Part shown: one piece after another, positions 33,600-35,854 of the stretch | Layout of the letters: every line of letters begins with the position of its first letter | How positions within the stretch are numbered: position 1 is the stretch's first letter | Program-made: the position numbers and the translations under genes | Notes under the pieces: generated by a model | The model's database searches: none | The model's input: only the letters and a program-made list of their open reading frames with translations | What the model was told of the DNA's origin: nothing | Assembly: GCA_040880465.1 (NCBI GenBank) | Contig: JBBDIK010000007.1 | Location: 40,342-104,341 of the forward strand | Direction of reading: 5' to 3' | Origin: Actinomycetota bacterium | Lineage (GTDB): Bacteria; Actinomycetota; UBA4738; JBBDHU01 | Length of the DNA: 64,000 bases

Positions 33600-34430
33600 C
33601 TATTCGTCCTCGGCTTCGGCGCCCTTGGCCAGCTCCTGGGAGCGGTCACGGGCGGCGGAGATTGCGTTCAGGAACGCCGCACGGATGCCGGCGTTCTCCA
33701 ACTCCCGGATCGCCTCGATGGTCGTGCCGCCGGGCGACGTCACCATCTCACGCAGGATCACGGGGTGCTTGTTCGTGTCACGGAGCATCTTGGCCGACCC
33801 GAGCATCGTCTGGATGATCAACTCGGTCGCGACGTCGCGCGAGAGGCCCAGCAGGATGCACGCGTCGATCATCGCCTCAGCCAGCAGGAAGAAATACGCG
33901 GGGCCCGAGCCGCTGGTCGCCGTGATCGCGTCCAGGTGCTTCTCGGGCAGGCGCATCACCCGCCCGACGTTCGACAGCAGCTCCTCCGTCATGGTCAGGT
34001 GCTCATCATCGGCGCTCGAGCCCGTCGCGATCACCGACATCGCCTCGTCGACCAAGACGGCGACGTTCGACATGACGCGGACGACCGCCGTGCCATCCGG
34101 GCAGGCTGCCTCGACGAACGACGTCCGGATACCGGCGGCGAAGGAGATGACGAGCTGGTCGGCGCGGACCGAGCCCTTGATCTGCTCCAGCAGGGTGTCC
34201 ATGTCCTGGGGCTTCACGGATAGGACCAGCACGTCGGCCCACTCGACGGCTTCCGGGTTCGACAGGGTCGCCGCGATGCCGTATCGATCGGCCAGCTCGT
34301 TCACCCGCTTGCCACGGCGGCAGGTGACCATAATCTCGTCCTCGGTCCATCCGCCGGAGCGGATGAGCCCCGAGACGAGGGCCTCGCCCATCTTGCCGCC
34401 ACCCAGGAAGGCGACCTTGCGTCCGATCAT
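33600..34430 (-). CDS. proC: pyrroline-5-carboxylate reductase
   Basis: Internal ATG at 34430 preceded by GGAGGAA. Motifs FLGGGKMGEAL and SPGGTTIEAIRELE. Confidence 0.9.
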   Translation of the reverse strand: MIGRKVAFLGGGKMGEALVSGLIRSGGWTEDEIMVTCRRGKRVNELADRYGIAATLSNPEAVEWADVLVLSVKPQDMDTLLEQIKGSVRADQLVISFAAGIRTSFVEAACPDGTAVVRVMSNVAVLVDEAMSVIATGSSADDEHLTMTEELLSNVGRVMRLPEKHLDAITATSGSGPAYFFLLAEAMIDACILLGLSRDVATELIIQTMLGSAKMLRDTNKHPVILREMVTSPGGTTIEAIRELENAGIRAAFLNAISAARDRSQELAKGAEAEDE

Positions 34431-34440
34431 CCGAGATTCC

Positions 34441-34880
34441 TCCGAACCCGTTGGGCCCCTAGGGTAGCGAAGTCGGACGGTGGCAGGCGCCACAGGCCTT
34501 CGGCGGGCCGCGAGCATGGCCAGCGGGGAGGGCGGTGGAAAAGAAAGAACCCGAGAGACCTTCCGGCTCGTTGGTGACCGAAGCCACCAACCACCTTCTG
34601 GCCTCTCGGGCTCTAGGTGCCCCAAGCAACCTCGGCGGCGGGTCGGGGTGCGCCCCGACCGGTAGGCCCTTTCGTTGGGCTTTGGGGCCTTCCAAGCCTC
34701 TCCACCCGCACAGCTAGTTGGCCTTCCCAACCGTACGAGCAGGTGCGCCTAGTCGGCCTTACGGCTTTCCCAGGGGCCCCCGTTCGGTTCCCTGACTCCT
34801 TGCCGCTCTCGGCTGCTTGGAGCGAGACGGAATCTACCGACCGGCCTAGGCCGGGTCAACCCTGCAAACCCGCAGGTCAG
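34441..34880 (-). ncRNA. candidate structured RNA or long structured proC leader (unclassified)
   Basis: No credible ORF in any frame. On the minus strand there is an 8-bp hairpin capped by C(UUCG)G (34571..34590). It is enclosed by an 11-bp helix containing one G-U pair (34600..34610 with 34550..34560). A further 8-9-bp hairpin lies at 34639..34661. The wobble pairs form only on the minus strand. Confidence 0.3.
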
Positions 34881-35314
34881 AGTACATATGCCCAGGTAGA
34901 GGGCCTAGGAAGAAGTGTGACAAGAACTCGGCTTCTTTCCGTCACCCGGATCACCATCGCCGCGACGCAGATGGTGAGTGCCGATCGTCGCGCACGATCC
35001 GCGAAAGAGATCGCGTGCGAACACGCGACACGAACGCATCACCGGTTCGTGACCCGTCACGGACAACGCGCGCCGCGTCATCGCTCGCGTCCACCGGAAG
35101 CACGGCAGCGCGCAACGACGTCGTGGTGTGGGAACACCGTCGCGAGGGACTGCGCGGCACGACAACGACAGCCACGCGTTGAGAGAGTCCGGGCGCGCCC
35201 CCGTCGCCGCGGGCGGTCGAAGTCGGCGATCCACATGCCGCCGCGCCCCGGCCGAAGCGCGGCCGATCGACATCACGGGTCCGTCAGACGCTGGGCGTGT
35301 GGAACGGACCGCTG

Positions 35315-35854
35315 CTACGCCTCAACCACCCATCGGGCTTGCGCTGCAAGGCACTCGGCGCGTTGCACGCTCATGAAGAACCGGTCGCCCCACCGGCCTT
35401 CCTTGAAGGAACGCTGACGCAACGTAGCCTCCATGACGAACCCACACTTCTCGTACGCGCGGATCGCGGGATCGTTGCCGACAAGTCCCCACAACTCGAC
35501 CTGATGCAGGTCAAGCCGGTCGAACGCGTACGCGAGCAACGTCATGATCGCGTCGGTCCCGAACCCCCTCTCCCGATACGGCGCATCGCCGATGAAGACG
35601 TACAGCGAACAGATGCGATCGCGGCGCCGGAACTGATTCAACCCGATGCGACCGATAGCGACGCCGTCGACCTCGATGACGAACGGGTGCCCTTCGAGTC
35701 GCGCGCTCGCTTCGCTCACCTTGATGTCATCGATCGTGAACGGACGCTCGTAGTCCATCTGGAAGAACACGTCCGGTTCGTTCTGCCACTCGACGATCAG
35801 CGGATAATCGTCTTCCTCGACGGGCCGAAGGACCACGTTCCGGCCGCGGATCAT
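35315..35854 (-). CDS. GNAT N-acetyltransferase (RimJ/RimL-like)
   Basis: YRERGFGTDAI and AIRAYEKCGF motifs. ATGA overlap with the mshA stop. Confidence 0.8.
   Translation of the reverse strand: MIRGRNVVLRPVEEDDYPLIVEWQNEPDVFFQMDYERPFTIDDIKVSEASARLEGHPFVIEVDGVAIGRIGLNQFRRRDRICSLYVFIGDAPYRERGFGTDAIMTLLAYAFDRLDLHQVELWGLVGNDPAIRAYEKCGFVMEATLRQRSFKEGRWGDRFFMSVQRAECLAAQARWVVEA

What the first reader, a model, noticed from the sequence alone, without database searches (positions are those of the whole stretch)
34431..35314. 885-nt ORF-free, hairpin-rich region upstream of proC: candidate large structured RNA
In an otherwise tightly packed window this is by far the longest stretch without a plausible CDS. 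The only ORFs are Arg-rich out-of-frame artefacts.

Reading the minus strand, the same direction as proC and the upstream GNAT gene, the proximal 440 nt contain nested helices:
- an 8-bp stem closed by a C(UUCG)G tetraloop (34571..34590)
- inside an 11-bp helix (CCCGAGAGGCC with GGUCUCUCGGG, 34600..34610 and 34550..34560)
- a GC-rich 8-9-bp hairpin (34639..34661)
- GCCC-AACGAAA-GGGC (34666..34680)
- CCUGC-GGGUUU-GCAGG (34861..34876)

The two G-U pairs become A-C mismatches on the plus strand, which favours a minus-strand transcript.

The distal part (34881..35314) also has stems, for example CGCGUG-UUCG-CACGCG at 35012..35027. I could not match the region to RNase P, tmRNA, SRP, or the cobalamin, TPP or c-di-AMP riboswitch signatures.
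Basis: partly seen in the sequence, partly recalled or inferred. Interest (0 to 1): 0.65.

Follow-up and report, generated by a model that had tools for sequence, protein, structure and literature searches.

The report
Abundant new structured small RNA gene
The third of this gene-free gap next to proC holds a real gene for a structured small RNA (about 286 nt when made, about 207 nt when mature) of a family absent from Rfam; the family is conserved in uncultured soil Actinomycetota and is about as abundant in soil and groundwater RNA data as RNase P RNA of all bacteria combined, while the rest of the gap is ordinary spacer.

Summary
The gap is real, but it is not one 885-nt RNA. Only window 34538-34823 (minus strand) is an RNA gene. 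A conserved promoter and upstream boxes reach to about 34924.

- **Gene layout:** -35 TTGACC, -10 TAGATT, start at G34823, a 13-bp closing helix P1, an irregular rod with about 45 invariant loop bases, then a terminator hairpin and U-tract.
- **Structure support:** across 81 non-redundant relatives, 97% of cells pair and 47 of 81 pairs show compensatory changes (0 of 500 shuffles reach this). Conserved G-U pairs fix the strand.
- **Known families:** Rfam 15 gives no match. RNase P RNA and tmRNA lie elsewhere in the genome.
- **Expression:** in eight metatranscriptomes, summed depth over the core reaches 0.03-3.4 million. Depth over the terminator is zero or at most a few percent of the core. 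It is zero over the promoter and 0-23 over the start of proC. DNA runs are flat.
- **Mature form:** the abundant form is the P1-closed rod (about 207 nt here, inferred by homology), with the terminator removed.
- **Junction:** head-to-tail junction contigs occur in RNA runs but in none of 241 million metagenome DNA records. This means either a circular RNA or template switching by reverse transcriptase.
- **Distal part:** 34936-35314 is unconserved, unexpressed and folds no better than chance.

Function is untested. My best guess is a protein-titrating RNA, possibly analogous to 6S or Ms1.

The parts
34912..34924 (-). Conserved upstream box CTTGTCACACTT (consensus TTGTCACTCTTT), about 90 nt upstream of the start. 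Probably a regulator-binding site.
   Evidence: At least 70-90% conserved across 18 genomes from different families (alignment A1). Also present in the f4 variants.
34870..34901 (-). Two direct repeats, CTCTACCTGG (34890-34901) and CTCTGACCTGCGG (34870-34882), about 20 nt apart and just upstream of the -35 box. A candidate operator.
   Evidence: The ACCTG and GACCTGCGG columns are invariant or nearly so in A1 and in the f4 variants.
34831..34859 (-). Sigma-70/sigma-A type promoter: -35 TTGACC (34859-34854), 17-nt spacer, -10 TAGATT (34836-34831).
   Evidence: It is the only promoter-like site in 34400-35350 (0.1 expected). TTGAC is invariant, and TA in the -10 box is kept in at least 90% of sequences.
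34617..34823 (-). Mature RNA, about 207 nt. The 5' end is G34823, 8 nt after the -10 box. P1 pairs 34823-34811 with 34631-34619. The 3' end lies about 2 nt after P1; its position in this genome is inferred by homology.
   Evidence: Covariation. Limits of RNA-run depth on the window and on relative L055. The head-to-tail joint L055 3289->3089 corresponds to alignment columns 39 and 263.
34660..34782 (-). Core module P3-P7, about 123 nt, with about 45 invariant bases (CCCUGGGAAAGCCGUAAGG ... CCAAAGCCCAACGA.AGG). This is the unit that is duplicated in tandem in some relatives.
   Evidence: Alignments A2 and A3. Model R1. Tandem copies in L021 and L071 and in G353.
34641..34659 (-). Genus-specific GC hairpin (GUCGGGG-CGCA-CCCCGAC) within the 3' strand of the large internal loop. 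Most relatives have AGGAAACCGAGAC here instead.
   Evidence: Alignment A2, columns 218-237; coordinates.
34538..34613 (-). Intrinsic terminator. Lower stem 34613-34600 with 34560-34547, a nearly invariant internal loop GGUGG/CGAGCC, an upper stem with a UUCG loop, and a U-tract at 34546-34538. It is part of the precursor and is removed from the abundant form.
   Evidence: 16 of its 24 pairs show compensatory changes. RNA depth over it is zero or at most about 5% of the core. DNA runs cover it evenly.
34936..35314 (.). Distal spacer; not part of the RNA.
   Evidence: No match beyond query position 363 even in the same genus. MFE z = -0.48. RNA depth is 0 at 34842-34980. No Pfam match and no translated similarity.

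Best explanation
Window 34538-34823 (minus strand) is a stand-alone gene for a structured small RNA of a previously undescribed family.

Shown:
- A near-consensus housekeeping promoter starts transcription at G34823.
- The transcript folds into a rod closed by a 13-bp helix (P1) that pairs its 5' end with a segment about 190 nt downstream.
- A long terminator hairpin and U-tract end the primary transcript, which is about 286 nt.
- In environmental RNA the terminator hairpin is missing. The P1-closed rod accumulates to very high levels. It is about 204 nt in relative L055 and 207 nt here by homology.

Inferred:
- The precursor is cut in the 4-5-nt spacer between P1 and the terminator.
- The stable rod works as a ribonucleoprotein RNA. 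About 45 invariant loop bases and the two GGRAACCGA-bearing strands of the large internal loop would bind and titrate a conserved protein.
- The most likely partner is RNA polymerase. That would make this a lineage-specific analogue of 6S, Ms1 or CoRP RNA.
- The conserved upstream boxes would make its synthesis condition-dependent.

My odds:
- Stand-alone, processed, abundant structured sRNA: about 0.95.
- Acts by binding or titrating a protein: about 0.6.
- The protein is RNA polymerase: about 0.3.
For: Conservation:
- A DNA match is found in 53 of 61 genomes of the same order.
- The 19-nt invariant motif is found in at least 119 genome contigs, nearly all from uncultured Actinomycetota.
- The linear form is found in at least 120 metagenome contigs.

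Structure:
- RNAalifold predicts 82 pairs, 47 with compensatory changes.
- 97.0% of cells pair, against 89.0% in shuffles (0 of 500 reach the observed value) and 30-53% in slid controls.

Not a known RNA:
- No Rfam hit at E<=10 on the region or at E<=0.1 on 19 homologous loci.
- RNase P RNA and tmRNA are found elsewhere in the genome.

Own transcription unit:
- The gene has its own promoter and terminator.
- A -10-like CCTATACT lies after the terminator in many relatives (alignment A2).

Expression:
- Summed depth over the core is 0.06-3.3 million, against 0-23 over proC and 0 upstream.
- This equals or exceeds RNase P core depth in three of four runs.
- It is 8-240 times the tmRNA depth.
- DNA runs are flat.

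Ends:
- Depth limits, the head-to-tail joint and snap-back ends all place the 5' end at alignment column 39 and the 3' end at about column 263.

6S-like traits:
- A closing stem, an internal loop of about 18 x 19 nt and a long terminal arm; a mature length of about 200 nt; high abundance.
- RF00013 finds 6S in 133 of 401 genomes of the phylum sample, but above cut-off in none of the 20 strong carriers and in none of the genomes of this order in the sample.
- It has been proposed that each bacterial species has one abundant RNA polymerase-associated RNA, with lineage-specific types in Actinobacteria (PMC11077062).
Against: - No binding partner has been tested.
- 6S RNAs are conserved in shape rather than sequence, whereas this RNA has about 45 invariant bases in its terminal arm. 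That looks more like a specific RNP core, a ligand pocket or a tertiary fold.
- One carrier (G063) also has a full-length, sub-threshold 6S-like hit of 36 bits. Strict replacement of 6S is therefore not shown.
- The complementary distribution rests on very few independent lineages.
- In family f4 the conserved core is replaced by 6-8 GNRA-capped hairpins, while the promoter, P1 and terminator are kept. It is hard to tell which part carries the function.
- Depths are summed contig word depths from many organisms, which is only a rough measure.
- The mature ends were measured on relatives, not on this organism.
Confidence: 0.8

Rival explanations
1. The RNA is a cis-acting riboswitch or attenuator for the downstream proline genes (PRODH-proC; proC alone in this genus). 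On this reading the P1-closed domain is a large aptamer and the terminator is its expression platform.
For: - The RNA is co-directional with, and upstream of, PRODH and/or proC in most loci.
- A closing P1 followed directly by a terminator is the classic OFF-switch layout.
- CUCGGG in the 3' strand of P1 could pair with CCCGAG of the terminator.
- Tandem copies of the core module recall tandem aptamers.
- The invariant internal loops could form a ligand pocket.
Against: - A TetR gene lies between the RNA and the proline genes in many genomes.
- In distant carriers PRODH is on the other strand, while mshA stays immediately upstream.
- A -10-like box follows the terminator.
- The alternative helix is broken (C.A) in exactly the sequences where the terminator covaries: L082, L121 and L131.
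- The RNA accumulates as a trimmed, discrete species at 10^4-10^5 times the depth of the downstream gene.
- Family f4 swaps the supposed aptamer for hairpin arrays but keeps P1 and the terminator.
Confidence: 0.06
2. The RNA is a stand-alone abundant RNA whose role has nothing to do with RNA polymerase. It could be the scaffold of another RNP, a trans-acting ligand-binding or self-assembling 'ornate' RNA (like raiA, OLE or ROOL/GOLLD), or a base-pairing regulator or sponge.
For: - About 45 invariant loop bases and two adjacent invariant internal loops are typical of specific RNP cores or tertiary folds, not of 6S.
- The module is duplicated in tandem.
- The f4 variant carries arrays of GNRA hairpins separated by purine-rich linkers, which looks like a sponge or a set of tertiary contacts.
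- G063 may hold a 6S RNA as well.
Against: No candidate partner, target or ligand emerges from the neighbourhood. The rod shape, large internal loop, size and abundance fit the 6S/Ms1 pattern equally well.
Confidence: 0.45
3. One reading: the whole gap of 885 nt (or the proximal 440 nt) is one large structured RNA.
For: The region is free of ORFs and rich in GC stems.
Against: - Conservation stops at about 34935 outside the genus and at about 34952 within it.
- The distal part folds at chance level (z = -0.48).
- There is no RNA depth beyond 34841 in four metatranscriptomes.
- The promoter lies at 34831-34859.
Confidence: 0.02
4. The region is a decayed protein gene or the remnant of a mobile element.
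For: The spacer in this genus is unusually long, at about 490 nt between the GNAT stop and the RNA start.
Against: - No Pfam match for the longest frames.
- No translated similarity to about 245 related loci.
- Single copy in the genome.
- The conserved part evolves by compensatory base-pair changes, not by codon-like changes.
Confidence: 0.01

Closest known systems
6S RNA (Rfam RF00013)
   Same: - About 200 nt when mature, with 5' and 3' ends paired in a closing stem.
- Rod shape with one large internal loop and a long terminal arm.
- Very abundant, and matured from a longer precursor.
- Recognisable 6S is absent from this order.
   Different: - No match to the 6S model, even at E<=10.
- Strong sequence invariance in the terminal arm.
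- Its own terminator hairpin, which is later removed.
- RNA polymerase binding and product-RNA synthesis are untested.
Ms1 RNA (Mycobacterium; scr3559 in Streptomyces) and CoRP RNA (Corynebacterium)
   Same: - Lineage-specific, highly abundant actinobacterial sRNAs with their own promoter.
- 6S-like folds.
- CoRP is also cleaved into stable pieces (PMC11077062).
   Different: - Ms1 is about 300 nt and CoRP 516 nt.
- Ms1 lies between HAD-IB hydrolase and oxidoreductase genes (PMC9130861), and CoRP lies between tRNA genes. This RNA lies between mshA/GNAT and TetR/PRODH/proC.
- The Rfam scans, which per PMC9130861 include an Ms1 model, gave no hit.
Orphan 'ornate' bacterial RNAs (raiA motif, OLE, ROOL, GOLLD); comparison from my own knowledge
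   Same: Conserved, intricately structured, abundant non-coding RNAs. They have many invariant unpaired bases, a lineage-restricted distribution and no obvious function from gene context.
   Different: No sequence or structure match to any of their Rfam models. This RNA is smaller than OLE, ROOL or GOLLD. Whether it self-assembles or has protein partners is unknown.
Transcription-terminating riboswitches
   Same: A closing helix P1 followed directly by an intrinsic terminator. Invariant internal loops. Tandem domain duplications in some genomes.
   Different: - No conserved antiterminator.
- The downstream genes vary and appear to have their own -10 box.
- The RNA accumulates as a trimmed, stable species.

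Membership tests
6S RNA | Match to covariance model RF00013 | tested here: not met
   No hit in the region at E<=10. No hit in the whole genome at E<=1. No hit above cut-off in any of the genomes of this order in the sample.
6S RNA | Rod of about 160-200 nt with a closing stem, a large central bubble and a terminal stem | tested here: met
   P1 (13 bp) and P2 (6 bp); an internal loop of about 18 x 19 nt; P3-P7. The mature form is about 204-207 nt.
6S RNA | Binds the sigma-A/sigma-70 holoenzyme and templates product RNA | not testable with these tools
   Needs RIP-seq, pull-down or in vitro transcription.
Ms1 RNA | Sequence and structure homology (an Rfam model exists, per PMC9130861) | tested here: not met
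   All-family Rfam scans found nothing. Caveat: that model detects only close relatives of mycobacteria.
Ms1 RNA | Conserved neighbours: HAD-IB hydrolase/SerB-like gene and an oxidoreductase | tested here: not met
   The neighbours here are mshA, GNAT, TetR, PRODH and proC. Compare.
Ms1 RNA | Binds the RNA polymerase core | not testable with these tools
   Experimental.
Riboswitch / transcription attenuator | Mutually exclusive terminator and antiterminator, kept by covariation | tested here: not met
   The candidate helix (A2 columns 254-259 with 270-275) becomes C.A in L082, L121 and L131, where the terminator compensates with A-U.
Riboswitch / transcription attenuator | Lies in the 5' leader of the regulated gene, on one transcript | tested here: not met
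   The downstream gene varies (TetR, PRODH, proC or others) at distances of 19 to more than 700 nt. RNA depth over proC is 10^4-10^5 times lower.
RNase P RNA / tmRNA | Match to RF00010 / RF00023 | tested here: not met
   Both genes are found elsewhere in the genome: C12:77759-78145 at 236 bits and C14:12572-12926 at 150 bits. Neither model hits the region.
Circular RNA | Head-to-tail junction in RNA that is absent from DNA | tested here: met
   The joint L055 3289->3089 occurs in X46 and X47. A second joint, 3274->3106, occurs in X46 and X54. The junction pattern is in 0 metagenome DNA contigs, against at least 120 for the linear control. It is in none of 167 loci. There is no such joint in DNA runs or on tmRNA.
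Circular RNA | Covalently closed molecule (RNase R resistance, no ends), not an artefact of reverse transcription | not testable with these tools
   Only assembled contigs are held. Template switching between ends held together by P1 would produce the same junction.

The most novel reading that the evidence does not exclude
The mature RNA is covalently circularised in the cell. After the terminator is cut off, the 5' and 3' ends held together by P1 are ligated. In a shorter form the ends at the base of P2 are ligated. This would give an exonuclease-proof circular RNA of about 205 nt that accumulates to extreme levels. It would be a chromosomally encoded, abundant circular regulatory or RNP RNA in bacteria, founding a new RNA class in widespread soil Actinomycetota.
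Probability: 0.15. Interest if true: 0.9.

Novelty: categorically new. Interest (0 to 1): 0.8.

Why it matters
- A structured RNA with about 45 invariant bases that is conserved across an order of uncultured soil Actinomycetota, and that rivals RNase P RNA of the whole community in metatranscriptomes, is very likely doing something central in those cells. It is in no database.
- It gives a concrete candidate for the 'missing' abundant RNA polymerase-associated RNA of deep actinobacterial lineages. Alternatively it is a new RNP or ornate RNA class.
- The RNA-only head-to-tail junctions make bacterial RNA circularisation directly testable.
- The RNA is also a sensitive marker for the activity of this lineage in soil RNA data, and it should be added to annotation pipelines.

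Tried and rejected
- **Rfam scans.** At gathering thresholds on the whole window I found only three tRNAs. At E<=10 on the region I found only chance hits of 13-17 bits. At E<=0.1 on 19 homologous loci I found nothing.
- **ARAGORN.** No tRNA or tmRNA in the region.
- **RNase P RNA or tmRNA in disguise.** Rejected: both lie elsewhere in the genome.
- **Repeat or mobile element.** Rejected: single copy in the genome.
- **Pseudogene.** No Pfam match and no translated similarity.
- **Distal part as RNA.** Rejected.
- **Riboswitch.** Rejected as the main reading.
- **Literature search for the invariant motifs.** No paper prints them.
- **Cleaner transcript data.** The single-organism runs X26-X28 and X45 gave only one to three low-depth contigs each, with no ends. 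For the f4 variant, only DNA runs hold it.
- **The junction as a DNA-encoded tandem copy.** Rejected by the metagenome scan and its control.
- **Naming the lineage.** Record titles say only 'Actinomycetota bacterium' or 'uncultured Actinomycetes bacterium'.

Full report
**What is in the gap.** The 884 bases between proC (33600-34430, minus strand; Pfam P5CR_dimer/F420_oxidored) and a GNAT acetyltransferase (35315-35854, minus) contain only ORFs without a Pfam match. Rfam 15 finds nothing there. At gathering thresholds the whole window yields three tRNAs. At E<=10 the region yields three chance hits of 13-17 bits. ARAGORN finds no tRNA or tmRNA there. The region is single-copy in its 1.74-Mb, 86%-complete genome.

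**Conservation divides the gap in two.** A DNA search of 61 genomes of the same order finds a match in 53 of them, at 72-90% identity. The match covers only query positions of about 385-778, which correspond to window positions of about 34537-34930. Even the genome of the same genus stops matching at about 34952. The distal part (about 34936-35314) therefore evolves freely, although the adjacent GNAT protein is 86% identical. The distal part also:
- folds no better than shuffled sequence (z = -0.48);
- has no translated similarity to about 245 related loci;
- has no RNA-run depth over the part laid, 34842-34980.

I read it as spacer.

**Anatomy of the conserved part.** Alignments of 18 and then 81 non-redundant homologues (A1; A2) show the layout below, read on the window's minus strand.
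- An upstream box TTGTCACTCTTT at 34924-34912.
- Two direct repeats of CT(G/A)ACCTG at 34901-34890 and 34882-34870.
- An invariant -35 box TTGACC at 34859-34854, a 17-nt spacer, and a -10 box TAGATT at 34836-34831. This is the only promoter-like site in the region, where 0.1 is expected.
- The RNA itself, starting at G34823.
- P1, a 13-bp helix that pairs 34823-34811 with 34631-34619.
- P2 (6 bp), then an internal loop of about 18 x 19 nt. In most relatives each strand of this loop carries GGRAACCGA.
- An arm, P3-P7, with two adjacent invariant internal loops (CCCUGGGAAAGCCGUAAGG opposite CCAAAGCCCAACGA.AGG).
- After P1, a 4-5-nt spacer and then a long terminator hairpin (34613-34547) with a nearly invariant internal loop GGUGG/CGAGCC.
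- A U-tract at 34546-34538.

**The structure is supported by covariation.** RNAalifold predicts 82 pairs, and 47 of them show compensatory double changes. When the pairs are counted independently, 97.0% of cells are paired, against 89.0% in column shuffles (0 of 500 reach the observed value). Slid controls give 30-53%. Every helix except the invariant UGGG/CCCA helix shows double changes. Seven nearly invariant G-U pairs would be A-C mismatches on the opposite strand, which fixes the transcribed strand.
- two are the terminator;
- one is a genus-specific hairpin in the internal loop (34641-34659);
- one is made of invariant bases whose local pairing cannot be tested;
- one lies in the promoter.

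**It is not a known RNA.** The 19 homologous loci also give no Rfam hit at E<=0.1. According to PMC9130861, Rfam holds an Ms1 model, though that model finds only close relatives of mycobacteria. RNase P RNA (236 bits) and tmRNA (150 bits) lie on other contigs of the same genome. 6S (RF00013) has no hit in this genome at E<=1. No paper in the held library prints the invariant motifs.

**Distribution and variants.**
- The 19-nt invariant motif occurs in at least 119 contigs of species-representative genomes. Nearly all are labelled as uncultured Actinomycetota or Actinomycetes from soil, sediment or groundwater.
- A covariance model of the core module (R1) finds the RNA in 23 of 401 genomes sampled evenly from the phylum. 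Seventeen are in this order, three are strong hits in other families, and three are weak.
- L021, L071 and G353 carry two tandem RNA genes, each with its own promoter and terminator. One of the two genes holds the 125-nt core module twice inside a single P1.
- In several genera of family f4 the promoter boxes, P1 and the terminator are kept. The inside is replaced by 6-8 short hairpins with GCAA or GCGA tetraloops, separated by purine-rich linkers.
- One genome (G424) has a reduced form in which P1 is followed directly by a U-tract.

**Gene neighbourhood.** The usual order, all on one strand, is mshA-like GT4, sometimes a GNAT, the RNA, sometimes a TetR regulator, then proline dehydrogenase and proC. 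In this genus PRODH is missing, and proC follows 101 nt after the approximate RNA end used in that analysis. mshA immediately upstream is the only neighbour kept in the distant carriers. Many relatives show a -10-like CCTATACT between the terminator and the next start codon.

**Expression.** Many soil, sediment, groundwater, wetland and ice metatranscriptomes hold the conserved core.
- On the window at 80% or greater likeness, four RNA runs give a summed contig depth of 0.06-3.3 million over 34653-34799. They give 0-23 over the start of proC and 0 beyond 34841.
- On a consensus-like relative (L055) at 92% or greater likeness, eight runs confine the depth to L055 3088-3289. Seven of them show clear signal, with peaks of 0.03-3.4 million; the eighth (X60) holds a single contig. 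Depth is zero over the terminator in four runs and at most a few percent of the core in three others. It is zero over the promoter and flanks.
- The contigs are short and do not run on into unlike sequence, so this is not a piece of a larger RNA.
- In the same runs, the conserved core of RNase P RNA reaches 0.24-1.35 million. That core attracts contigs from all bacteria.
- tmRNA-like contigs reach 4-85 thousand.
- Four DNA runs cover proC, the terminator, the core, the promoter and the upstream spacer evenly at 5-95x. The RNA pattern is therefore not a mapping artefact.
- Contig word depth summed over organisms is a crude measure. Even so, differences of this size show a very abundant, discrete RNA.

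**Ends and the junction.** L055 3289 corresponds to alignment column 39. This is the first G of P1 and lies 8 nt after the -10 box. L055 3089 corresponds to column 263, two bases after P1. Two independent runs, X46 and X47, contain contigs that join 3289 back to 3089 with one or two extra bases, with 44-48 bases aligned on the shorter side. In RNA sense the junction reads ...GGUUGCUCGGAGCAC-U(U)-GCUCCGAGCAG.... In X47 this contig is the only one that covers the 5' end. Snap-back ends in X18 and X50 mark the same 5' end. A second joint (3274->3106, columns 55 and 244) joins the two ends at the base of P2; it occurs in X46 and X54.

The junction is not encoded in DNA:
- The junction sequence is absent from 241 million metagenome DNA records, while the linear P1-to-terminator sequence is found in at least 120 of them.
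- It is absent from all 167 loci held at that point.
- It does not appear in DNA runs or on tmRNA.

The junction therefore exists only at the RNA level. Either the RNA is circular, or reverse transcriptase switches between ends that P1 holds side by side. Both readings place the mature ends at the two sides of P1. Mapped onto this genome, the mature RNA is 34823-34617 (207 nt), and the 286-nt precursor loses its terminator hairpin.

**How it most likely works.**
- Shown: it is a promoter-to-terminator unit, it has a covariation-supported rod fold, it is trimmed at the 3' end, and it is extremely abundant.
- Inferred: it is a stable RNP RNA that binds and titrates a conserved protein.

RNA polymerase is my first candidate, at about 0.3, for these reasons:
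- The size, the paired ends, the large internal loop and the abundance are those of 6S RNA.
- Actinobacteria are known to use lineage-specific RNAs of this kind, namely Ms1 and CoRP.
- RF00013 detects 6S in 133 of 401 genomes of the phylum, but above cut-off in none of the 20 strong carriers and in none of the genomes of this order in the sample.

Several things count against it:
- The invariant terminal arm is unlike 6S.
- One carrier (G063) has a sub-threshold 6S-like hit.
- The distribution argument rests on few independent lineages.
- The f4 variant exchanges the conserved arm.

A different RNP, a ligand-binding RNA or a self-assembling RNA is about as likely as the RNA polymerase reading.

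A riboswitch for the proline genes is unlikely (about 0.06):
- The candidate antiterminator is not kept where the terminator covaries.
- The downstream gene varies and seems to have its own -10 box.
- The RNA accumulates as a trimmed species at 10^4-10^5 times the depth of proC.

**Relation to earlier notes of this scan.** Three notes on other genomes describe the same family. One follow-up (e1-1388446) reached the same identification: a stand-alone RNA with its own promoter and terminator, absent from Rfam, lying between mshA and proline dehydrogenase. I re-derived those points independently. I add:
- the metatranscriptome abundance and its controls;
- the removal of the terminator and the mature ends;
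- the RNA-only head-to-tail junctions;
- the f4 hairpin-array variant and the reduced variant;
- the cross-tabulation with 6S.

**Verdict.** The proximal third of the gap is a member of a new, highly expressed structured RNA family, and the rest is spacer. The family's function is open and experimentally approachable.

Noticed in passing
window 34870-34924 (minus strand): A conserved box TTGTCACTCTTT and two direct repeats CT(G/A)ACCTG(C/G)GG, about 20 nt apart, lie upstream of the -35 box. They are kept across families and in the f4 variant. This looks like the operator of a response-regulator-type transcription factor that controls the RNA.
   Followed up: partly
L159, L160, L161, L166, L167 (genomes G047, G036, G059, G016, G020): In several genera of family f4 the promoter, P1 and terminator are the same, but the conserved core is replaced by 6-8 short hairpins with GCAA/GCGA tetraloops (..GCCGCAAGGC..). 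The hairpins are separated by purine-rich linkers, and the RNA is about 420 nt. Only DNA runs hold this variant.
   Followed up: partly
L021:800-1500, L071:1-700, L163 (G353:C44:56811-57473): In lower-GC relatives there are two tandem RNA genes, each with its own promoter (TATTGAC-17-TAAATT) and terminator. One of the two genes contains the 125-nt core module twice inside a single P1.
   Followed up: partly
L162 (G424:C1, about 1440500-1440800): A reduced form of the RNA. It lacks the CCCUGGGAAA and CAACGAAAGG loops, and P1 is followed directly by a U-tract with no separate terminator hairpin.
   Followed up: no
L055:3106-3276 in runs X46 and X54: A second head-to-tail joint joins alignment column 244 to column 55, at the base of P2. 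This is as if P1 had been removed on both strands before joining. Its depth is 3863 in X54.
   Followed up: partly
related loci downstream of the RNA (for example L055, L005, L003, L022): Proline dehydrogenase and proC (P5C reductase) sit in one co-directional block, often behind a TetR regulator. This puts a catabolic and a biosynthetic proline enzyme side by side. In the window's own genus PRODH is missing from this site.
   Followed up: partly
window 34936-35314: The spacer between the GNAT gene and the RNA promoter is about 380 nt longer than in most relatives. It is not conserved even within the genus, although both genomes of the genus have a spacer of similar length. Its origin is unexplained.
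   Followed up: partly
phylum sample of 401 genomes: The Rfam 6S model hits 133 of 401 Actinomycetota genomes but none above cut-off in this order. G063 carries both the new RNA and a 36-bit, full-length 6S-like hit.
   Followed up: partly
   Followed up: no
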